64,000 nucleotides of DNA from an uncultured Gammaproteobacteria bacterium (GTDB lineage Bacteria; Patescibacteriota; Microgenomatia; Daviesbacterales; UBA10151), in assembly GCA_964394855.1 (NCBI GenBank), contig CAYMZD010000001.1, forward strand, positions 120,107 to 184,106, in the 5' to 3' direction. The position numbers and the translations under genes are program-made. Every line of letters begins with the position of its first letter. Position 1 is the first letter of the stretch. Below, one piece after another: positions 6,766 to 31,982 of this stretch. The notes under the pieces were generated by a model. That model had not been told where the DNA came from, ran no database searches, and saw only the letters and a program-made list of their open reading frames with translations.

Positions 6766-8130
6766 TTAGGCTGCGGCTGGCAGTTCCTCTCTTTCCTCTT
6801 TGGCTGCCGGAGGTCGCCCCCTGGTTTTTTCCATGCCATAAAAACGCACTCTATCTGCTCTAAACATCAGTGGAATATCCCCGGTAGGTCCATTTCTGTG
6901 TTTTTGAATATCCAAAGTGACTTGTTCCGGCTTTTCCAGATCCTCACGGTAGATAAACATCACCACATCCGCATCTTGCTCAATGGCCCCAGACTCTCGT
7001 AAATCCGCCAGTTGGGGCTTTCTGGAACCACGCGCTTCAACTGCTCGGGAGAGTTGAGAAATGGCCAGCACTGGAATTTTAAGTTCTCTGGCCAAATTTT
7101 TTAAACCCTGGGAAATTTCCGAAACTTCCTGTACTCTATTTTCCAAATTCCGCCCACGGATAAGCTGTAAATAATCAACAATCAAAAGCTTTAGTCCGTA
7201 TTCAATCTGCAAACGTCTGGCTTTGGTTCTAATTTCAGCCAAGGATGCACCCGGGGTGTCATCAATAAAAAGAGGCGCCTCGGCCAATTCCCCCATGGAA
7301 AGTGACAGTCTGTCAAAATCTTTCTCATCCAAACGGCCGGTTTTTAACTTCCAAGCATCAATGTCGGCTTGTCCCACCAACAACCTGTCCACTAACTCTT
7401 CCTGGCTCATCTCCAAAGAGAAAATTCCCACTGGCAACCCTGCTGAAACAGCCACAAACTGGGCCACATTTAAAGCAAAGCTGGTTTTTCCCTGACCCGG
7501 CCGGGAAGCCAAGATTAGCAAGTTTGAATCCTGCATGCCAGCCAGCTTGGCATCTAAATCTCTAAAACCTGTGGGCACACCTCTTAAGCGTCCTGATGAT
7601 TTTTGCAGTTCATCCAAGCGGTCAAAACTTTCAGCCAGGGCATCTTTAATGGGAATAAAATCTCTTTTGACATACTCTTGGGATAGAGAAAAAATGCCTG
7701 CCTCGGCCGACTCCAGCAGCTCATCCACTGCACCAGCTTCTTCGTAAGAAGCCTCTATCAGCCTAGTTGATTGGGCAATTAAAGTTCTTTTAATGGCGTG
7801 CTCTTTAATGATTCTGGCATAATTTTCCACATGAGCAGAGGTGGGCACCATATTGATCAAGGTAGTTAAATAACCCACCCCGCCTATTTTATCCAACATC
7901 CCTGCTTTTTTAAGTTCTTCTGAAATAGTCACCAAGTCAATTGGCTCCCGCCTCTCAAATAAACTTTGCATGGCTGAATAAATTTGACCATGAGTATCAC
8001 TGCGGTAAAAATGGGCAGGATGTAAAATTTCTGCCACTCTGACTATGGCATCTTTATCAATTAATAAGGCCCCTAATAGGGATTGCTCTGCCTCAATATT
8101 TTGCGGTGGAAGTTTAGGCTGATTTGGCAT
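6766..8130 (-). CDS. dnaB: replicative DNA helicase
   Basis: N-terminus 'PPQNIEAEQSLLGALL', Walker A 'SRPGQGKTSFALN', and 'LLIVDYLQL' then 'SQLSR' RecA-fold motifs. Confidence 0.9.
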   Translation of the reverse strand: MPNQPKLPPQNIEAEQSLLGALLIDKDAIVRVAEILHPAHFYRSDTHGQIYSAMQSLFERREPIDLVTISEELKKAGMLDKIGGVGYLTTLINMVPTSAHVENYARIIKEHAIKRTLIAQSTRLIEASYEEAGAVDELLESAEAGIFSLSQEYVKRDFIPIKDALAESFDRLDELQKSSGRLRGVPTGFRDLDAKLAGMQDSNLLILASRPGQGKTSFALNVAQFVAVSAGLPVGIFSLEMSQEELVDRLLVGQADIDAWKLKTGRLDEKDFDRLSLSMGELAEAPLFIDDTPGASLAEIRTKARRLQIEYGLKLLIVDYLQLIRGRNLENRVQEVSEISQGLKNLARELKIPVLAISQLSRAVEARGSRKPQLADLRESGAIEQDADVVMFIYREDLEKPEQVTLDIQKHRNGPTGDIPLMFRADRVRFYGMEKTRGRPPAAKEEREELPAAA

Positions 8131-23971: not shown

Positions 23972-24253
23972 TTACTCAACTAAAATATTACCCACCATTG
24001 AATCTGCATGGGCACTGCAGTGATAAGGGTATATCCCGTTCCTTTCAAAAACTATTGAATAACTTTCCCCTTTTTTCAAAGCTTTAGAATTTTGGGCAAT
24101 GTAGTAAGTATGCGCCGGATGCGAATCTGTATTTATATAATGCTCTACCCCATCATCATTAATCCATGTCACTTTGGTCCCTTTACTAATTTTGATATTT
24201 TGGGGATCAAACCTAATTTGGGACAACTTTATTTTCTTTCTTTTGTCATCCAT
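23972..24253 (-). CDS. small type-1 copper (cupredoxin/plastocyanin-like) protein
   Basis: C-terminal ligand set 'YHCSAHADSM' (Cys-x2-His-x3-Met) plus an upstream His ('GVEHY'). Confidence 0.55.
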   Translation of the reverse strand: MDDKRKKIKLSQIRFDPQNIKISKGTKVTWINDDGVEHYINTDSHPAHTYYIAQNSKALKKGESYSIVFERNGIYPYHCSAHADSMVGNILVE

Positions 24254-24691: not shown

Positions 24692-25444
24692 TCAAAGAGG
24701 GGTATCCGGACGCAGAATTTTGACAACACGAGGCTCTATCGGCTTTGCAGGAGGGTGGGAAAAAACTCGAAGAACCGAAATTCTTCTTCTCTTGCACGCT
24801 GCAATATACCCCCACTCAACAAGTGGTTCGGACGAACAATAATCTAGAAACTTTTCCCACTCTTCCTGCTTTAGCAAATGAAATCCCCAATAATGGAAAG
24901 ATGCGCCAGAATTTAAAACAAAGCCTGGACTCCAGCTGCTCATCAATTTAGAAATATCATCCAATTTTTCCTCAGTTGGCTCACATCCAAAATCAAGCAT
25001 TGGTATGTGTGCATACGTTCCATCAGTCAGTTTAATTCGCGAGACTATCCCCATTGCGTAAAAAGGTTTGTATCTTTCAAATCCATCCAAAAGCTTGTCG
25101 ATTTCATCTAGAGGTGGATTAGAAGTTATATGATCTGCCATTTTCCGAAGAAACTTCCCTGTTATGGGCTTTGGCAACTCTTTAACTTCTTGAAAATCAA
25201 TATCTTCCTCAGAAGTCCTGTCAACATTATAAACACCATAAAATAGCTGCTCTATTTCCGGAAATGCTGTCAGAATCTCGAGTAAGATATCCACTGCGGT
25301 GGAACCAATACCAACTCTTTCTGGAACTTTGTATTCTCGCCCTAATTCTGAAAAAGAAAGTTGTGTGGCAACTTGTAGTGGACTTTCTTTACTAACCCCA
25401 GACATATATTGCATATTATCATATGGGCACATTAAAAATCCCAA
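24692..25444 (-). CDS. hypothetical protein
   Basis: 250-aa ORF, Trp-rich C-terminal half, no motif recognised. Confidence 0.35.
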   Translation of the reverse strand: MGFLMCPYDNMQYMSGVSKESPLQVATQLSFSELGREYKVPERVGIGSTAVDILLEILTAFPEIEQLFYGVYNVDRTSEEDIDFQEVKELPKPITGKFLRKMADHITSNPPLDEIDKLLDGFERYKPFYAMGIVSRIKLTDGTYAHIPMLDFGCEPTEEKLDDISKLMSSWSPGFVLNSGASFHYWGFHLLKQEEWEKFLDYCSSEPLVEWGYIAACKRRRISVLRVFSHPPAKPIEPRVVKILRPDTPL

Positions 25445-25453
25445 GTCAATTAC

Positions 25454-26485
25454 TTATTCACCTTTTAGAAACTTGTCAAAAAAGGAAACGGAGCGGGACA
25501 TGGCAGTTGAAAAATTACCTGACAAGTTATGGTCATCGCCCTCATAGGTATAAAGCTTAACTTCTTTTCCCACCTTTTTCATCTGTTCTAGGAGCTTTTG
25601 GGAAAAAGCCACCGGCACAGAGCTGTCCCCTGTCCCGTGGTGAAGCTGCAATGGTCCTGAAATATCAGATAAATAGGAATTAGCAGAAAGGGAATTCCAA
25701 AACTGCGGGTTTTGACCTGGCTCGCCAAATTGCTCAACCAAACTTTGTCTCCAACTACTTCTGACTCCCGGAGGTGGGGTAAAGCTTCTTCTTCGCCAAT
25801 TGTAAAAAAGGTCTTCATATGAGGCCACCACCCCTGCCCAAATCACACCTGCCTTGACATCTTTGGAAATAACCATGATCCGAAGTGTCAAAAATCCGCC
25901 CAAAGAATGCCCCCACATACCGACTTTTTGCGGATTAACACCTGCATATTTTTTAATTGAAGAGACTGCATTTAAAACATCAATTGTATATCCGTTTGAA
26001 CCATATGCTCCTGCGGGTTGACCCTCGGAATTTCCATGTCCGCGGTAATCGGGTTTAAAAACTACATATCCGCTCCTGGCAAAACCGTCAACGTAAGAAA
26101 CATACCGCTCAATGGTTTTATATTCTGTGGGTGGAATGTAACCATGATTAAAAATAATGGCCGGGAAGCCGCCCTCCGGCAAAGTAGCATTGGGAACAGT
26201 CAACAAAGCATAAATTTTTAGTCCTTCTGATTTATATGAGGCAATATAGCGTTTGTAATTTGTGCCACTGTCCAAAGTCTCTTCAATGACAATATCGGAG
26301 GCTGGATATTGACCTTTTCGAAGTGATTCTATGGAAAGTGAGTGTGGCTCACTAGTTAGCTCTCCCTCGCCTCCGGGCAGATTAAACTGCTGTATCGGCG
26401 CTTTGCTAAAAAACCCGTTTTTACCTGCCAAAATGCCCGCACCCAATAAAATGATAATAAAAAATAGAACAAGGGGTTTCTTCAT
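25454..26485 (-). CDS. secreted alpha/beta-hydrolase (S9 prolyl-oligopeptidase/dienelactone-hydrolase-like)
   Basis: Signal peptide, nucleophile elbow 'GMWGHSLGG', and a C-terminal Asp/His region ('HHGTGDSSVP'). Confidence 0.7.
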   Translation of the reverse strand: MKKPLVLFFIIILLGAGILAGKNGFFSKAPIQQFNLPGGEGELTSEPHSLSIESLRKGQYPASDIVIEETLDSGTNYKRYIASYKSEGLKIYALLTVPNATLPEGGFPAIIFNHGYIPPTEYKTIERYVSYVDGFARSGYVVFKPDYRGHGNSEGQPAGAYGSNGYTIDVLNAVSSIKKYAGVNPQKVGMWGHSLGGFLTLRIMVISKDVKAGVIWAGVVASYEDLFYNWRRRSFTPPPGVRSSWRQSLVEQFGEPGQNPQFWNSLSANSYLSDISGPLQLHHGTGDSSVPVAFSQKLLEQMKKVGKEVKLYTYEGDDHNLSGNFSTAMSRSVSFFDKFLKGE

Positions 26486-26510
26486 TTTCTGTTATTGCCA
26501 GAAGTATATA

Positions 26511-27287
26511 TTAGTCGGCGTAAATGACAAAGGTGAATAATTTGTTCCCCAAACCAAAATCCCTTTCAAAAACTGCTACACGACCCTGTTTTTTAACTAA
26601 TTCTCCCCACTCCGAGGGATTATTAAAGTTGCCTTGACCCGGGCGTAGAAGTGTTTGACTAAGAGTTGTACTAGCGTCAAGATGAGCATAAATTAATTCC
26701 AACTCATCGTAATCATGTTGATTAGGATGCTGATTGGTTTCCGGATTACTGGTATAGTCCATACAGCTGCCTAAATTGGCATTGTCAAAATTTACGTCCT
26801 GATGGTCCAACCCCAAAGTATGACCCACCTCCTGGCACATCACCAGATTACGCCAGGGAGTAGTATTGTAGGTTGAAGTATTAAAATAAGTATCATTTAC
26901 TTTGGTCACCCCTTGCACAATGTGCAGGTTGCTATTAACCCAAATTTGCGCCAGACCCAGCCAGCCGTTATTTCCATAGTTGGAGTTGCATACTTCCACC
27001 CGGCCCGAAGTTGCTCGGCAATTACGGGCTTTGGTGCCACCAGGCACAATTGTGGTATCCAAAACAGAAGAAAGACTCCAATCAAAAGAAGTAGTAGCAA
27101 GAATTGGGTCCCAGACCGAAGAAAGATTATCGCCTAATTTCAAATTAAAAGGATTAACAGTCCTGGCCCAATGATAACCGCCCCAGGAGTGGCTGGCAGA
27201 GGCAGTGGCAGGAAGAAAGACACTCAAAACAATTGCCGCGACAAACAAAAATAAAGCCGGAATAAGCTTGGAGCGAATATTATGCAT
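26511..27287 (-). CDS. secreted metzincin-like zinc metalloprotease with variant motif
   Basis: Signal peptide. 'CQEVGHTLGLDHQD' fits HExxHxxGxxH except that the first His is Gln. Confidence 0.5.
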   Translation of the reverse strand: MHNIRSKLIPALFLFVAAIVLSVFLPATASASHSWGGYHWARTVNPFNLKLGDNLSSVWDPILATTSFDWSLSSVLDTTIVPGGTKARNCRATSGRVEVCNSNYGNNGWLGLAQIWVNSNLHIVQGVTKVNDTYFNTSTYNTTPWRNLVMCQEVGHTLGLDHQDVNFDNANLGSCMDYTSNPETNQHPNQHDYDELELIYAHLDASTTLSQTLLRPGQGNFNNPSEWGELVKKQGRVAVFERDFGLGNKLFTFVIYAD

Positions 27288-27368
27288 TCTTATACACTAT
27301 TACAAATTACCCTTTCGATGTCAATCCCTCGTAGAAAATTACTCTTTAGTAATATGGATGAACTTGGG

Positions 27369-30300
27369 TTATGGAGCATCCCAGAAGGTAATATCTGCAA
27401 AAGATTGAGAAGTCTTTGGGGTAGCTTTACCCGGGACAGGAAGCGGAGGACTAATAATGATGGTGTCTCCGCTATTATTATAAACATCCAGCAAGCCTGT
27501 ATAAAGTTGCATCCCGTTTATATTCTCTAAATTATAAGCAATATCTGCTGCAGTGATATTCGATTGAACAGTAGAGGAACACCCAAAGGCCACACAATTT
27601 AATTTAGCTGTTACTAATTGCTGCAGCAGCACCATTCTGGCTTTATCAACTTCACCCCGTTGAGCGAGTTTTCCTTTGCCAGTTGATTTCATGGAAATAT
27701 TTGAGTAGTAAGCACCAAAGAGTTGGCTTTGTTTAGGAACCTGGAAATTTGTAATTGACCCTTTATGAGGAGCAGTGCCGATTAGCATGCCACCAGAGAA
27801 GTGGGTTGCAAAAACTGTAGATGTAAAACTGGTATGAGTCTGCCAAAAACCCTGGGTTCTGGTGGGACCGGGCTTGAAGTTATTGAACGTGCAGGTTACT
27901 TCTGCAGCCGGATCAAGAGAAATAATAACACTTGTACCATTCACCACTATATTTGTGTATGGTGATCGGTCACTATCATTGATACAATTTATTCCTTGAA
28001 ACTGCCAAAATGCAGGTAAAGTCTCCCCGGCAGTATAAACCGCGTTTGCAGAAAGATTTTCAAAGGTCTTTGCTTGCGGGTAATTAGTTCCCGTCGGATC
28101 TTGAACCCCGGCATCATCATCTAGGAAAAAATTATCCTTGCCAGTGAATGAAAATTCAAAATCCTGGGCGTCATTAGGAGTAGCATCTTTAACTATAGTA
28201 ACTTTACCTTGTTTTGTATTAGTAAATGTACAGGTTACTACATCCCCATTATGCAAGGTTATTGAAGCTGGGGTATTGCCTTCCCCATTACACACTCCCC
28301 CATCACTATCCCAGTCAGTAACCGCACCTTCGGAAACACTGTATGTTCCAAGCGCAAGGAAGCCGGAATCATTTTGCTGACCGTCAATTAAGTTAAAGGT
28401 GGCACCACTGTTGTAGCTCGGAGTAAATGTAAAGCTCTGACTACTACCGTCTGGCAATGTTTGCTTGACAACAATTATCTTGCCGGCTACAAAAGTTTTG
28501 GTGGCATCTTCACTGGAACCGTGGGTGCCATCAGTTGCTCGAGCGAGTGAAACACCGCCTACATTAAGAGTAACCGTGGCATGAATCGTAACTGTACCAG
28601 GCGAAGCACTGGTAAAGACGATTATACATTGGCCGCTTACATCTGTATTTGGTCCGGCGTCATCACAAGTGCTGGCAGTATTGTCAAGAACCGATACAGC
28701 TCCACCTGAATCCGCGAGCGTGAAGTCAACGTGCTCACCTGCGGCCGGCGTAGCACCTGTACCGGGATCTTTGGTTACGGTAACTGTTACTGTGTGTGGA
28801 GCGTTGACGTTGTTTTCAGCGGTTAACGGACTCAGCGCGATATTTGCATCAACATAAGTCTTAGTAGCTGGACCGGAATTGTCTCCAACCCCGTTTGTCT
28901 GAAGTTTGAATTCAACGCCGTTAACAACAACTGTCGAACGGGCGGTGATCGTAAAGACTCCAGCAACACTTGAATTTATCGTTACCGTGCACTGACCGCT
29001 TGCGTTTACACCATCATTACAATCCGAAACGTCAAGACTTGTTGATGGACTAACAATCGCATTTGCAAGTGTACCTTCAGGAACCGGAACGAATCCTGAA
29101 CCAGTGTTTTGTTCAACTGTCACGATGAAATCGTGTGAATTTCCGACTTCGTTGGTTGAAGTATTGGGAGTAATACTAATCCGAGCATTTACATAGTCTT
29201 TTTGTGCATCGGCGCTATTGTCTCCGCCTGTTCCAGTTGAAACATTTAGAGTAACACCAAGCACAGTTGGACTGGCTGAAGCGTTAACAACTACATGACC
29301 CGGAGTTGGGGAATTGATAGTTATCGAACAAGCACCACCGGTAGTAGTACAGGTATTAGGACTTGCGGGAACAAATACTGCTGTCGCGCCATTTGAATTA
29401 GTAATTGAGAAAGTAATAGTTGTACCATCAGCAGCTGGTCCCCATACACCATCGCCATTTTGAACCTGAACATTTGCCGAGATTACGTGATCATCTCCAA
29501 TTTTGTTTGCATCCGTAAGAGGAGTAAGGTCAATCTGTGCTGCCGGCTTATTGTTTGTGAAGGTACACGTGACATCTTCGCCTGCTGCAATGTTAAAGGT
29601 TGCGATTCCTGTCTTAATATCTCCCGTACTGTCACCATCGTTACATGTAATATTCGTTAATGCCCAACCGCTAAGCACGGCTTCCGTTGAGCTATACACG
29701 CCTGGGACTACTTCTTCGGTTGCAGTGTCGCCGTCGCCTAATGTTCCTGCAACATTACCCGTAAATATGAACTCCGCTGGATCTCCGTCAGGAATTGTTT
29801 GTTTCTCAATTGTTATGTGACCCTTTCTTGTATTCGTGATTGTGCAAGTCTTGTCATCTCCGGCAGCAAGTGTAATAGTACCAGCGGTAGCTGTACCTCC
29901 ACAGCCTACTCCACTAACAACACTCGTATAATCACTTAAGTTTGTTCCCGTTCCAGCTGCTTCTGCAAAAGTATTGGAACCAATGTTGGCAAACTGAGCG
30001 TTAGTTGTCCCTCCATTGCTAACATCTGTAACATATTGGGTGCCGTTAATTGAGAGGTTGAATTTGCCGGTATCATTTGTGGGATCGGTTACTTTAACAA
30101 CTGTTAATTTTGGCTTCTTGGTGTTAGTAAAAGTACAGGTAGTGGTTTGTCCGGCTACTACGGTCACACCCGTTACCCCATTTGTTCCGGCAGTAAATGC
30201 CTTATCACAAGAGGCAGAACCAAAATTCCAGCCAGAAGGAACAGTTTCCGTAATAGCATAGTTTGTACCTGAATTAACTGGGGTAGGACCGCTTGAGCCA

Positions 30301-31982
30301 GTACCTCCGGAGGTGGTAATGCTGGGAGTCAAAGGTGTGGGACCGGTAACACTATAATTAAATGTCATATCCCCACCAGTGGTATTTTTTACGATTACCA
30401 AATTCCCCTGCTGAAGGGTATTAATAAAGGTACAAGTTACATTTTCCCCCTCTTTTAAATTAATTGTCGCGGTTGATCCGCTAACTGATTGTGTGCCACC
30501 ATTAGGACTAGTGACAGAACATGAGGCCGAATCAAATCCCCAACCAGTAGGAACTGGTGTTTCATTAACAGAGTATGTCTGGAAATCTACGATATTAGAA
30601 AACACCCTTGTGTTTGCTGATGTGCCATCATCAACAAGCGAGAAATTTGTTAAAGGTGAAGGAGATGCTGTAAATAGAAAAGAAGTTGATCCGTTTGGTG
30701 TCGCGTCTTTGATAATTGTTATTGATCCGGGAAAAATAACTGCGGCTGCGGAAAGTGATCTGTCCTGATTGCCGCCACTTCCGTCAAGATCAATAAGTCT
30801 GGTATGGTACGGAGATCCCGAAATATTCACTGCTGAATTATCCAATCCCCAATCAGCTCTAGTAGAAATATGCCCACCCCAAGCCAGCACCGGATTAGCA
30901 ACACTGGCAGTAAATGTAATTGTAATTCTTGCTGATTTATCACCGGTAAAACCCGTACCATCTGCGTATGAATAGGGGCTAACAGCAGTAATGGTTCCAC
31001 CATAAAGTGTGAAATTACCGGCAATTGGAGTTACTCCGGCTCCGGTCACTTGCGGATCCGCCGGTATAGGATCAGTGTTTAGACTACCACATCCACTAAC
31101 CCCTAAACATGGATTAGCTGTTGCTACCGTTTGATTAAAAGTTGTCAGATAATCAATTGCATGTTTACTGCTTTTAGTTGTATCCCATTCTATGGTGACT
31201 GTATGTGAAGCAAGACTTAAGTTGTCAAATGTTAATCTGTAAGGAATTGAATCACCTTCAAAGTACGAAGATTTACTTGCGCCAAGATTTCCGTTTACCC
31301 AATCGCTGGCACTGGCACTGCAACCATCGGTACTTGGAGATGGAGCCGGATCATTTGCACATTGATCCAGCCTAGCAGATGGATTAGCGTCTGTAAATGT
31401 TGTTGTTGCAACAATATTGCCTGAAGAATCCTTGAGTTCTACTTCATAGTTGGGTCTGTAAGTTCCATCTAACTGATAAGCATAAACAAATTCTCCTTTT
31501 TCGTTTGTTGTCACTTGGGTGCTAAACTCAAGTGCCGGGGGGCCGTCTGAAGTAATCACAAGAGTGTAAGTGGTATTTACTTTCAAACCTGTTCCGGAGA
31601 TAACTACCGTATCTGTTGGGGCATAGTCTGCTTTATCTGTAATCAAAGAAGCAGAGCTTGTTACATCAACCGGATCTAAATCAAGGCTGGTAACAGAGCT
31701 GGCTGAGGTATCCGATAAAACAACTGCTGTTAACTGCCCTTCGGCAGTGGGTGATGGGGATGGTGAAACTTCTGGAGTTGCGGTTGGTCCCGATTCAATC
31801 GGGGTTGGGGTAGGAGTCTCAGAGGGTGTAGGAGAAGGTGAAGGTTCAGAAGAAGGACTAATGGTTGGTTCTGCTGTAGACGTGGCTTCCTGGGCATAGG
31901 CCAAAGGACCAAGAGTATTAAAAACTAAAAGAAGAGAGGTAATGAAAGAAAAAAATTTACGAGAAATGCTTCTTCTATTCAT
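27369..31982 (-). CDS. giant (1537 aa) cell-surface protein: signal peptide, Pro/Thr/Ser-rich linker, at least 6 tandem Ig-like (DUF11/'conserved repeat domain'-type) modules, and a distinct 260-aa C-terminal domain
   Basis: N-terminal 'LLVFNTLGPLAYAQEA', 'PSPSPTPSETPTPTP', and recurring module ends 'VTCTFINT', 'TTCTFTNTKKPK', 'KTCTITNTRKG', 'VTCTFTNNKPAA', 'VTCTFTNTKQGK', 'VTCTFNNFKPG'. Confidence 0.75.
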   Translation of the reverse strand: MNRRSISRKFFSFITSLLLVFNTLGPLAYAQEATSTAEPTISPSSEPSPSPTPSETPTPTPIESGPTATPEVSPSPSPTAEGQLTAVVLSDTSASSVTSLDLDPVDVTSSASLITDKADYAPTDTVVISGTGLKVNTTYTLVITSDGPPALEFSTQVTTNEKGEFVYAYQLDGTYRPNYEVELKDSSGNIVATTTFTDANPSARLDQCANDPAPSPSTDGCSASASDWVNGNLGASKSSYFEGDSIPYRLTFDNLSLASHTVTIEWDTTKSSKHAIDYLTTFNQTVATANPCLGVSGCGSLNTDPIPADPQVTGAGVTPIAGNFTLYGGTITAVSPYSYADGTGFTGDKSARITITFTASVANPVLAWGGHISTRADWGLDNSAVNISGSPYHTRLIDLDGSGGNQDRSLSAAAVIFPGSITIIKDATPNGSTSFLFTASPSPLTNFSLVDDGTSANTRVFSNIVDFQTYSVNETPVPTGWGFDSASCSVTSPNGGTQSVSGSTATINLKEGENVTCTFINTLQQGNLVIVKNTTGGDMTFNYSVTGPTPLTPSITTSGGTGSSGPTPVNSGTNYAITETVPSGWNFGSASCDKAFTAGTNGVTGVTVVAGQTTTCTFTNTKKPKLTVVKVTDPTNDTGKFNLSINGTQYVTDVSNGGTTNAQFANIGSNTFAEAAGTGTNLSDYTSVVSGVGCGGTATAGTITLAAGDDKTCTITNTRKGHITIEKQTIPDGDPAEFIFTGNVAGTLGDGDTATEEVVPGVYSSTEAVLSGWALTNITCNDGDSTGDIKTGIATFNIAAGEDVTCTFTNNKPAAQIDLTPLTDANKIGDDHVISANVQVQNGDGVWGPAADGTTITFSITNSNGATAVFVPASPNTCTTTGGACSITINSPTPGHVVVNASASPTVLGVTLNVSTGTGGDNSADAQKDYVNARISITPNTSTNEVGNSHDFIVTVEQNTGSGFVPVPEGTLANAIVSPSTSLDVSDCNDGVNASGQCTVTINSSVAGVFTITARSTVVVNGVEFKLQTNGVGDNSGPATKTYVDANIALSPLTAENNVNAPHTVTVTVTKDPGTGATPAAGEHVDFTLADSGGAVSVLDNTASTCDDAGPNTDVSGQCIIVFTSASPGTVTIHATVTLNVGGVSLARATDGTHGSSEDATKTFVAGKIIVVKQTLPDGSSQSFTFTPSYNSGATFNLIDGQQNDSGFLALGTYSVSEGAVTDWDSDGGVCNGEGNTPASITLHNGDVVTCTFTNTKQGKVTIVKDATPNDAQDFEFSFTGKDNFFLDDDAGVQDPTGTNYPQAKTFENLSANAVYTAGETLPAFWQFQGINCINDSDRSPYTNIVVNGTSVIISLDPAAEVTCTFNNFKPGPTRTQGFWQTHTSFTSTVFATHFSGGMLIGTAPHKGSITNFQVPKQSQLFGAYYSNISMKSTGKGKLAQRGEVDKARMVLLQQLVTAKLNCVAFGCSSTVQSNITAADIAYNLENINGMQLYTGLLDVYNNSGDTIIISPPLPVPGKATPKTSQSFADITFWDAP

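What the first reader, a model, noticed from the sequence alone, without database searches (positions are those of the whole stretch)
25454..31982. Co-directional secreted module: 1537-aa Ig-repeat surface protein, metzincin-like protease and S9 hydrolase
Three consecutive minus-strand genes all carry signal peptides. The first is a giant protein with a PT-rich stalk, at least six Ig-like modules each ending in a 'CTFTNTK'-type strand, and a distinct 260-aa C-terminal domain without an LPxTG sorting signal or a TM anchor. The other two are a zinc protease and a Ser hydrolase. In an organism with a reduced genome, inferred to be possibly epibiotic, such a block is a candidate host-attachment or feeding apparatus. 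The C-terminal domain of the giant protein ('GPTRTQGFWQTHTSF...') is uncharacterised and could be the functional head.
Basis: partly seen in the sequence, partly recalled or inferred. Interest (0 to 1): 0.55.

Follow-up and report, generated by a model that had tools for sequence, protein, structure and literature searches.

The report
Giant surface fibre with unknown tail
A tiny-genome groundwater bacterium (Candidatus Daviesbacteria) encodes a 1537-residue rod-like surface protein that ends in a previously undescribed basic helical tail domain, which is probably its cell-attachment end, but the two neighbouring enzyme genes are not a conserved partner set.

Summary
The three minus-strand ORFs exist as described, and the source is a Candidatus Daviesbacteria (CPR) genome.

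**The giant protein.** It is a fibrillar-adhesin-like protein. Its parts, in order:
- a cleavable signal peptide and a PT-rich linker;
- two unclassified N-terminal domains (D1, D2);
- six SpaA_4 modules, each keeping a CnaB-type Lys/Glu/Asn triad and a Cys pair;
- three Big_1-like modules, which interrupt the SpaA run after the fourth module;
- a 166-aa (not 260-aa) C-terminal domain (CTD).

**The CTD.**
- It folds confidently as a helical domain (pLDDT 90).
- It has no Pfam, NCBIfam, PDB or BFVD relative.
- It defines about 980 protein clusters, mostly CPR plus some DPANN archaea.
- It is always at the extreme C-terminus.
- It is always the basic part (pI about 9) of a very acidic protein (pI about 4).
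- Homologous stalks or heads elsewhere end in LPXTG/sortase or T9SS sorting signals.

I therefore read the CTD as the cell-proximal anchor and D1–D2 as the distal head.

**The module.** It is not conserved from any of the three genes' viewpoints.

**The "zinc protease".** It belongs to a huge unannotated family with an invariant QExxHxxGxxH motif.

The parts
31893..31982 (-). Giant protein, signal peptide (aa 1-30, MNRRSISRKFFSFITSLLLVFNTLGPLAYA|QE)
   Evidence: This is the only Kyte-Doolittle window of 19 residues scoring at least 1.6 in the protein. An A-Y-A|Q site is read directly from the sequence. Relatives show the same [AVT]-x-A|Q[DE] pattern.
31698..31892 (-). Linker (aa 31-95): rich in P/T/S/E over aa 31 to about 80, then an S/T/D-rich run up to D1
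   Evidence: The P+T+S+E fraction is 0.7-0.95 in 20-aa windows over aa 31-80.
31389..31697 (-). D1, a non-repeat N-terminal domain (aa 96-198) with no family assignment
   Evidence: No Pfam hit. It is found near the N-terminus of 52 of 106 long CTD proteins and is 79% identical in L007.
30723..31388 (-). D2, a conserved four-Cys domain (aa 199-420) and the proposed distal head
   Evidence: 411 homologues, up to 85% identical, with no Pfam or PDB match. It lies near the N-terminus in 63 of 106 long CTD proteins. A D2-like domain heads a Persicobacter protein that ends in a T9SS tail.
29547..30722 (-). SpaA_4 (CnaB-like, prealbumin-fold) modules 1-4 (aa 421-812)
   Evidence: Pfam PF24514 E 5.7e-39, 5 stretches. 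Alignment A5 shows invariant K7, E56, C99 and N103.
28485..29546 (-). Three Big_1-like Ig modules (aa 813-1166), each with one Cys pair
   Evidence: Pfam Big_1 E 1.4e-6 with 3 stretches, below the gathering score. The modules are 34-35% identical to each other, and self-tblastn confirms the repeat.
27870..28484 (-). SpaA_4 modules 5-6 (aa 1167-1371)
27372..27869 (-). CTD: unclassified basic helical C-terminal domain (aa 1372-1537; RTQGFWQTH ... NCxxFGC ... NNSGD ... FWDAP-end), the proposed cell-proximal anchor
   Evidence: AF2 pLDDT 90.2 and pTM 0.88, helical. No PDB or BFVD fold match. 982 representative proteins, and the domain is always C-terminal among the 150 listed. Its pI is 9.17 against 4.28 for the mature protein.
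26511..27287 (-). Secreted metzincin-like protein (258 aa) with a non-canonical QExxHxxGxxH site
   Evidence: More than 7,900 homologues. The invariant residues are listed. Weak Pfam matches fall on DUF4953, M10 and Reprolysin.
26796..26834 (-). Active-site-like motif QEVGHTLGLDHQD (aa 152-164); CMDY (aa 175-178, nt 26754-26765) is the candidate Met-turn
   Evidence: 119 of 120 homologues carry CQExGHxxGxxHQD. The Gln aligns with the first His of the ADAMTS-5 HEIGHLLGLSH motif.
25454..26485 (-). Alpha/beta-hydrolase of the S9/S15/S33 type (343 aa) with an N-terminal hydrophobic segment and GHSLG at aa 192-196
   Evidence: Pfam Peptidase_S9 4e-17, Hydrolase_4 2.2e-16 and Peptidase_S15 1.5e-12.

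Best explanation
The 1537-aa gene encodes a Sec-exported fibrillar-adhesin-type surface fibre.

**Shown**
- A signal peptide is followed by a flexible PT-rich linker.
- Two non-repeat domains (D1, D2) come next, then nine beta-sandwich stalk modules (six SpaA_4, three Big_1-like).
- Every domain has an even number of Cys.
- Every SpaA_4 module keeps the Lys/Glu/Asn triad typical of CnaB-type isopeptide domains.
- The protein ends in a 166-aa basic helical domain.

**Inferred**
- Intramolecular isopeptide and disulfide bonds make the stalk rigid and protease-resistant.
- The basic CTD holds the strongly acidic fibre on the cell's own anionic envelope. It does so non-covalently, in the place that LPXTG/sortase or T9SS tails occupy in related proteins.
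- The N-terminal D1-D2 pair is the distal, exchangeable binding head.

**The neighbours**
- The two downstream genes are independent secreted or envelope enzymes: a QExxH metzincin-like protein and an S9-type hydrolase.
- They happen to lie in the same variable stretch of an otherwise syntenic region.
- At most there is a loose tendency for the metzincin-like gene to sit near large surface-protein genes.
For: **Architecture**
- Pfam SpaA_4 E 5.7e-39. Six modules share invariant K7/E56/N103 and C99.
- SpaA_4 is listed among CnaB-like isopeptide families with a Lys/Glu/Asn triad (PMC12617251).
- All 24 Cys fall in pairs within domains.
- There is no LPxTG and no TM segment beyond the signal peptide.

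**CTD**
- The AF2 model has pLDDT 90.2.
- 982 representative proteins match at E<=1e-3. In all 150 listed, the domain ends at the protein's end, in proteins up to 2802 aa.
- In 69 genome loci, 0-3 residues follow the match in nearly all of the closer relatives (at least 30% identity) and 11-28 in the weak myxobacterial and Porticoccus matches.
- 133 of 144 proteins end in [FYW]W[DN]x(1-3)P.
- The CTD is more basic than the rest of the protein in 108 of 108 cases, median pI 9.13 against 4.07.
- Stalk types vary (SpaA_2, SpaA_4, Big_3_5, DUF11, DUF7507) while the CTD stays constant.

**Polarity**
- D2 lies near the N-terminus in 63 of 106 long members.
- D2 is exchanged between close relatives. 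L007 is D1 79%, D2 26%, CTD 72% identical; L028 is D2 75%, CTD 50%.
- A giant whose SpaA modules are up to 52% identical ends in LPATG plus a TM segment plus a basic tail, next to a sortase gene.
- A D2-like head sits on a Persicobacter protein that ends in a T9SS Por_Secre_tail.
[quoted passage not shown] About half of such proteins lack any known anchor (PMC8286594).

**Module not conserved**
Against: - No experiment and no structural relative ties the CTD to envelope binding. A basic domain could equally bind an anionic host surface.
- The CTD occurs in both bacteria and archaea, whose envelopes differ, so a specific ligand is hard to name.
- Only one CTD protein was found per genome locus set. 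A general sorting signal would usually mark several proteins.
- Weak myxobacterial relatives look like small lipoproteins made mostly of the domain, where it cannot be the anchor.
- The PT-rich linker, which is usually wall-spanning in Gram-positive proteins, sits at the N-terminal end here.
- D1 and D2 have no detectable adhesive-domain homology.
Confidence: 0.5

Rival explanations
1. The CTD is the distal functional head that contacts the host, and the protein is held on the cell by its N-terminal end or by another protein.
For: - The PT-rich linker lies directly after the signal peptide. In Gram-positive proteins such linkers usually adjoin the anchor.
- The CTD has many invariant polar residues (R3, H11, R70, R77, K88, N90, D127, N130, D134), as a binding or catalytic site would.
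- Distant myxobacterial homologues look like lipoproteins that display the domain.
- A basic domain could bind anionic host envelopes.
Against: - The signal peptide has a good A-x-A|Q cleavage site that is conserved in relatives, so the N-terminus is probably free.
- In many members D2 starts right after the signal peptide, with no linker.
- The CTD is the constant part of the family, while D2 and the stalk are shuffled.
- The same C-terminal slot holds LPXTG or a T9SS tail in proteins with a homologous stalk or head.
Confidence: 0.2
2. The giant is an S-layer or sheath-forming structural protein rather than an adhesin. Its Ig-like modules form a lattice and the CTD anchors it.
For: - It is large, very acidic (pI 4.3) and Thr/Ser/Gly-rich, with Ig-like repeats and a basic terminal domain.
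- S-layer proteins with Ig-like domains and novel anchoring domains are predicted in Patescibacteria (bioRxiv 10.1101/2024.05.28.596244).
- Only one copy was found per genome locus set.
Against: - CnaB-type tandem modules with isopeptide triads are characteristic of linear stalks (PMC12617251).
- Length varies from 367 to 2802 aa and the stalk type varies freely between relatives, which does not fit a conserved lattice.
- The gene is absent from the syntenic position in three related Daviesbacteria.
Confidence: 0.15
3. The three genes form one functional unit, such as an operon for attachment plus feeding. For example, the metzincin-like enzyme processes the giant, or degrades host envelope together with the hydrolase.
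For: - The intergenic gaps are short (81 bp and 25 bp) and no terminator-like site lies on the minus strand.
- The protease homologue is directly next to CTD giants in L008 and L016.
- In 4 of 10 protease contexts a surface protein of more than 1500 aa lies within 3 kb. In 2 of 10 a sortase lies within about 1 kb of the protease gene.
- S8 proteases flank CTD giants in 5 loci.
Against: - The trio is found nowhere else. The hydrolase is never near either partner, in 0 of 69 and 0 of 80 loci.
- The giants beside protease homologues are non-homologous: LTD/fn3, PKD or SpaA+LPXTG types.
- A promoter-like TTGACA-17-AATAGT lies between the giant and the protease gene, though such hits are at chance frequency.
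- All 15 ORFs of at least 120 aa between 15161 and 31982 are co-directional anyway.
Confidence: 0.1
4. The CTD is a polymorphic-toxin or effector domain delivered to the host.
For: It sits at the extreme C-terminus of very long repeat proteins in contact-dependent organisms.
Against: - The CTD is conserved at 45-72% identity across phyla rather than being polymorphic.
- No conserved small downstream (immunity-like) gene appears in 69 loci.
- It matches no toxin family.
Confidence: 0.03

Closest known systems
Gram-positive fibrillar adhesins and pilus-type proteins with CnaB/SpaA stalk domains (e.g. Cna, SdrD, SpaA-type; FA-like proteins sensu Monzon et al. 2021, PMC8286594)
   Same: - Sec signal peptide.
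- Non-repeat N-terminal domains followed by tandem SpaA_4/Big beta-sandwich modules.
- Lys/Glu/Asn triad in each SpaA_4 module.
- A homologous stalk in L161 carries LPATG and lies next to a sortase gene.
   Different: - No LPXTG, TM segment, SLH, LysM, GW or other known anchor. Instead there is a 166-aa basic helical domain with no family assignment.
- The head domains D1 and D2 match no known adhesive domain.
- Each module also has a Cys pair.
Non-covalent C-terminal wall-binding modules of monoderm surface proteins (SLH, GW, WxL, and the basic C-terminal domain of Lactobacillus S-layer proteins), named from established knowledge
   Same: - A terminal domain of roughly 150-190 aa.
- Basic, on an acidic extracellular protein.
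- Conserved while the rest of the protein varies.
- Trp-containing motifs at its start and at the very end.
   Different: - No sequence or fold match to any of them. Pfam gives nothing at E<=10 and Foldseek against the PDB gives nothing.
- It is also found in DPANN archaea, which lack peptidoglycan.
- Binding has not been tested.
Volvox carteri VMP3, a QEXXHXXGXXH matrix-metalloproteinase-like enzyme that prefers copper (Heitzer & Hallmann 2002, cited in bioRxiv 10.1101/2020.06.30.165720)
   Same: The 258-aa protein has exactly QEXXHXXGXXH followed by a Met-containing turn, and it is secreted.
   Different: - No detectable homology beyond the motif. There is no Peptidase_M11 or M10 hit above threshold.
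- It is bacterial and about 225 aa when mature.
- It has an invariant N-terminal HSWGxYHWAR.
- Metal preference and activity are untested.
T9SS-secreted giant adhesins of Bacteroidota (SprB-like)
   Same: The Persicobacter 3221-aa protein shares the D2-like N-terminal domain and the overall plan of head, long repeat stalk and C-terminal sorting domain.
   Different: - The stalk repeats differ (SprB, HYR, malectin).
- Its C-terminal domain is Por_Secre_tail.
- It comes from a diderm organism.

Membership tests
Fibrillar adhesin-like protein (stalk + adhesive domain + anchor) | Tandem stalk domains of beta-sandwich type | tested here: met
   SpaA_4 scores above the gathering cut-off, 133.7 against 27.3 bits. 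Six SpaA and three Big-like modules align.
Fibrillar adhesin-like protein (stalk + adhesive domain + anchor) | Recognised adhesive (ligand-binding) domain | tested here: inconclusive
   D1 and D2 are non-repeat terminal domains but match no Pfam, NCBIfam or PDB family.
Fibrillar adhesin-like protein (stalk + adhesive domain + anchor) | Known cell-surface anchor (LPXTG, SLH, LysM, GW, choline-binding, TM) | tested here: not met
   A regex finds no [LIV]Px[TSA][GNDAS] motif, and there is no hydrophobic window after aa 30. No anchor family appears in Pfam.
CnaB-like intramolecular isopeptide domain (SpaA_4, PF24514) | Lys in the first strand, catalytic Glu, Asn in the last strand | tested here: met
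   K7, E56 and N103 are invariant in all six modules. The family triad Lys704/Glu766/Asn814 is listed in PMC12617251.
CnaB-like intramolecular isopeptide domain (SpaA_4, PF24514) | The covalent Lys-Asn bond actually forms | not testable with these tools
   This needs mass spectrometry or a crystal structure.
Metzincin metallopeptidase | HEXXHXXGXXH/D zinc-binding motif | tested here: not met
   The motif is QEVGHTLGLDH. Gln is invariant in 119 of 120 homologues and aligns with the first His of ADAMTS-5.
Metzincin metallopeptidase | Met-turn downstream of the third ligand | tested here: inconclusive
   M176 in CMDY is invariant and lies 14 residues after H162. Its structural role was not verified because the AF2 model is poor, pLDDT 49.
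Metzincin metallopeptidase | Family-level sequence or fold match | tested here: not met
   The best Pfam hits are below the cut-offs: DUF4953 at 13.8 against 24.2 bits and Peptidase_M10 at 13.2 against 24 bits. Weak hits recur in 18-22 of 30 members. Foldseek on the low-confidence model gave nothing meaningful.
Peptidase S9 / alpha-beta hydrolase | Family HMM above threshold and a GxSxG nucleophile elbow | tested here: met
   Peptidase_S9 scores 62.8 against 22.6 bits, and several other abhydrolase families also match. GHSLG lies at aa 192-196. Candidate Asp (GTGDSS, from aa 284) and His (GDDHNL, from aa 316) were read from the sequence only.
Conserved three-gene module or operon | The same gene set is adjacent in related genomes | tested here: not met
   
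Polymorphic toxin system | Variable C-terminal toxin plus an adjacent immunity gene | tested here: not met
   The CTD is conserved and there is no conserved downstream gene family.

The most novel reading that the evidence does not exclude
The CTD is a new class of non-covalent envelope-attachment domain. It is shared across domains of life by ultra-small episymbionts (CPR bacteria and DPANN archaea). It takes the place of sortase or T9SS signals on isopeptide-stabilised fibres, whose exchangeable D2 heads set host specificity.

Separately, the neighbouring QExxH protein would represent a very large bacterial family of copper-type metzincins that act on the cell surface.
Probability: 0.35. Interest if true: 0.6.

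Novelty: new variant of a known kind. Interest (0 to 1): 0.45.

Why it matters
- How CPR bacteria and DPANN archaea hold on to their hosts is largely unknown beyond type IV pili.
- About half of all predicted fibrillar adhesins have no recognisable anchor (PMC8286594).
- This family offers a defined, confidently folding, always-terminal basic domain. It spans roughly 1000 protein clusters and both prokaryotic domains, so it is a concrete candidate anchor that can be expressed and tested.
- Its partner head domain D2 occurs with different C-terminal signals, which makes it a handle for host-specificity studies.
- The finding also corrects an attractive but unsupported "feeding module" reading.
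- It flags an unannotated QExxH metzincin-like family with thousands of members.

Tried and rejected
- AF2 on the protease family alignment gave a poor model (pLDDT 49). Its Foldseek search was uninformative, as expected.
- Sequence and profile searches of the PDB found nothing usable for the giant, the CTD, D2 or the protease.
- NCBIfam gave nothing for the giant or the protease.
- An exact look-up of the protease found no record.
- Promoter and terminator scans were at chance level.
- A search for a dedicated processing or sorting enzyme next to CTD genes found no consistently co-located family. CAP-domain genes appear in 8 loci, type IV pilus genes in 5 and S8 proteases in 5.
- Rejected as identities for the CTD: WxL and SLH domains (no sequence or fold match) and a toxin reading.
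- The plasmid collection holds no CTD relative.
- The search for homologous proteins returned only hits of 405 aa or shorter for the domain queries. Architectures were therefore taken from genome loci and the 50% library instead.


Full report
**Observation**

The ORF list confirms three consecutive minus-strand genes: 27369-31982 (1537 aa), 26511-27287 (258 aa) and 25454-26485 (343 aa). Co-directionality carries little weight, because all 15 ORFs of at least 120 aa between 15161 and 31982 are on the minus strand. The 258-aa protein is 100% identical to a Candidatus Daviesbacteria protein. The giant is encoded on GCA_016198215.1 contig JACQJA010000003.1. The lineage is Patescibacteria group / Microgenomates, so the "reduced-genome, possibly epibiotic" inference about the organism is reasonable.

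**Anatomy of the giant**

- Residues 1-30 form the only hydrophobic segment and end in A-Y-A|Q. A P/T/S/E-rich linker follows (aa 31 to about 80). There is no LPxTG-like motif and no C-terminal TM segment.
- Pfam finds SpaA_4 (PF24514, E 5.7e-39, five stretches).
- Six modules end in CTF[TIN]N. Aligned, they share invariant Lys7, Glu56, Cys99 and Asn103.
- SpaA_4 is one of the CnaB-like families predicted to carry a Lys/Glu/Asn intramolecular isopeptide bond (PMC12617251). The triad is present in every module, but the bond itself is inferred.
- Between modules 4 and 5 lie three Big_1-like modules. They are 34-35% identical to each other and score below the Pfam cut-off.
- Upstream of the stalk are two non-repeat domains, D1 (aa 96-198) and D2 (aa 199-420).
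- All 24 Cys fall in pairs within domains, which fits an extracellular disulfide-bonded protein.
- The distinct C-terminal domain (CTD) is aa 1372-1537, which is 166 aa and not 260.

**The CTD**

- It has no Pfam hit even at E<=10, no NCBIfam hit and no PDB sequence or profile hit.
- An alignment of 20 homologues gave a confident AF2 model (pLDDT 90.2, pTM 0.88), mostly helical.
- Foldseek against the PDB found nothing (best E 0.76, TM about 0.2).
- Foldseek against BFVD found only a weak Pithovirus match.
- A profile search of 1.84 billion representative proteins found 982 at E<=1e-3 and 719 at E<=1e-10. In all 150 listed, the domain ends at the end of the protein, in proteins up to 2802 aa. 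P0273 in that list is the window's own protein.
- A scan of species-representative genomes found 69 loci. By record title, 37 are CPR lineages and 5 are archaea (Woesearchaeota, Iainarchaeum, Methanosuratincola and others). A few are Bacillota, Coprothermobacter, Chloroflexota, Acidobacteriota or Actinobacteria, and there are weak myxobacterial matches.
- In those loci the domain again sits at the C-terminus. Zero to three residues follow the match in nearly all of the closer relatives, and 11-28 in the weak myxobacterial and Porticoccus matches.
- 133 of 144 proteins end in [FYW]W[DN]x(1-3)P.
- The stalk in front of it varies: SpaA_2, SpaA_4, Big_3_5, DUF11 or DUF7507.

**Which end is which**

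- The mature protein is very acidic (pI 4.28), and the CTD is its only clearly basic domain (pI 9.17; one SpaA module sits at pI 8.0).
- Across 108 long family members the CTD is always more basic than the rest, with median pI 9.13 against 4.07.
- D2 lies near the N-terminus in 63 of 106 long members and often starts right after the signal peptide.
- D2 is exchanged independently of the CTD. L007 is D1 79%, D2 26% and CTD 72% identical. L028 is D2 75% and CTD 50%. L066 is D2 74% and CTD 34%.
- Two "slot" comparisons bear on polarity:
  - A giant in L161 has SpaA modules up to 52% identical to the window's. It ends in LPATG plus a hydrophobic segment plus RRK, and lies next to a sortase gene.
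  - A 3221-aa Persicobacter protein starts with a D2-like domain (31.7% identity, E 9e-12, with the W..GN...Y.E..SIP.R and AxGxH.S.R.DWG..NS motifs shared). It ends in a T9SS Por_Secre_tail.

Together these favour the CTD as the cell-proximal attachment module and D1-D2 as the distal head. This is inference. A basic domain could also bind a host surface, the PT linker is at the N-terminal end, and only one CTD protein was seen per genome locus set.

**The neighbours**

*The 258-aa protein*
- It has a canonical signal peptide and the motif QEVGHTLGLDHQD followed by CMDY.
- The Gln aligns with the first His of the ADAMTS-5 HEIGHLLGLSH motif.
- It is invariant: 119 of 120 homologues carry CQExGHxxGxxHQD.
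- The family is very large, with 7963 of 8000 scored candidates at E<=1e-3, and is 62-70% identical across Microgenomates.
- It reaches no Pfam or NCBIfam threshold. Weak hits to DUF4953, Peptidase_M10 and Reprolysin_2 recur in 18-22 of 30 members.
- A Streptomyces plasmid homologue (61% identical) is annotated as hypothetical.
- The only documented QEXXHXXGXXH enzyme found in the literature search is Volvox VMP3, which is active and prefers copper.
- AF2 on this family failed (pLDDT 49).

*The 343-aa protein*
- It is an ordinary S9/alpha-beta hydrolase with GHSLG.

**Is it a module?**

It is not a conserved trio.
- Protease orthologues that are 77-89% identical, in other Daviesbacteria, have different neighbours. 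One sits behind an unrelated 1930-aa LTD/fn3 giant.
- The backbone of protease ... YchF-S6-SSB-S18 is syntenic with L001, whereas the giant and the hydrolase are absent there.
- Of 69 CTD-giant loci, a protease homologue is adjacent in two (L008, L016). The hydrolase is adjacent in none.
- 80 metagenome loci with a hydrolase homologue (48-74% identical) have neither partner within 8 kb.
- A looser pattern does exist. In 4 of 10 protease contexts a surface protein of more than 1500 aa lies within 3 kb, and in 2 of 10 a sortase lies within about 1 kb of the protease gene. S8 proteases flank CTD giants in five loci. No background statistic was computed for these counts.

**Verdict**

The giant is a fibrillar-adhesin-type protein of a known general kind. 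It carries two conserved domain families that no curated library describes. One of them, the CTD, is a good candidate for a new envelope-attachment module shared by CPR and DPANN organisms. The "feeding module" reading and the "C-terminal head" reading are not supported. I rate this a new variant of a known kind, of moderate interest.

Noticed in passing
window 26511-27287; L001, L003, L005, L159-L164, L076: The 258-aa protein belongs to a very large unannotated family. Members have an invariant CQExGHxxGxxHQD motif (Gln in place of the first zinc-binding His), and most carry a mature N-terminus xHSWGxYHWAR (100 of 120). The family is 62-70% identical across Microgenomates, and a 61%-identical copy sits on a Streptomyces mirabilis plasmid. 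The gene tends to lie near large surface-protein genes (4 of 10 contexts) or sortase genes (2 of 10).
   Followed up: partly
window 23972-24253 (minus strand); L001 7886-8347: A small cupredoxin (plastocyanin/azurin family, PF00127 E 1e-13) lies about 2.3 kb from the QExxH gene, and a cupredoxin also lies two genes from its orthologue in L001. Volvox VMP3, which has the same QEXXH motif, prefers copper, so a copper link is conceivable. It was not tested.
   Followed up: no
L161 9026-12771 (minus strand) and 7493-8092: A SpaA_4 giant has modules up to 52% identical to the window's. It ends in LPATG plus a TM segment plus RRK and has a sortase gene close by. CPR genomes therefore use both sortase signals and the CTD on homologous stalks.
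   Followed up: partly
L158 11845-21507 (Persicobacter sp. JZB09, CP012852.1): An unannotated 3221-aa ORF has a D2-like N-terminal domain, SprB/HYR/malectin repeats and a T9SS sorting tail. The 1.58-Mb record carries only 2 annotated features. A second ORF of 3310 aa lies just upstream.
   Followed up: partly
L008, L013, L036, L037: MAGs titled 'uncultured Gammaproteobacteria bacterium' carry CPR-type CTD giants, and one of them is a 915-kb 'chromosome'. L008 also carries a 60%-identical QExxH homologue. The taxonomic labels look doubtful.
   Followed up: no
L003 4158-9950: In another Daviesbacteria genome, an unrelated 1930-aa giant (LTD, Bact_surface_Ig-like, SdrD_B, fn3) occupies the position directly upstream of the QExxH orthologue. 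The slot appears to accept different giant surface genes.
   Followed up: partly
window 24692-25444 (minus strand): A 250-aa ORF with an AEP-like (archaeo-eukaryotic primase 1D-like, PF24387) domain starts 9 bp downstream of the hydrolase gene. It is followed by a GNAT acetyltransferase whose 3' end overlaps the start of the cupredoxin gene.
   Followed up: no
L009, L023, L032, L044, L049: Type IV pilus genes (PilB/PilC-like ATPase and platform, and pilins) lie within 10 kb of CTD giants in five loci. CAP-domain secreted proteins occur in eight loci.
   Followed up: no
window 28001-30000: GC content rises to 0.458 inside the giant gene, against about 0.39 for the window. This probably reflects its Thr/Gly/Ala/Pro-rich composition, but a foreign origin was not excluded. 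D2 is 74-85% identical to copies in other phyla.
   Followed up: no
CTD model me1869c82f823: The only fold match with a notable probability was an uncharacterised Pithovirus LCPAC001 protein (A0A481Z1W0; prob 0.87, TMq 0.43, E 0.12).
   Followed up: no
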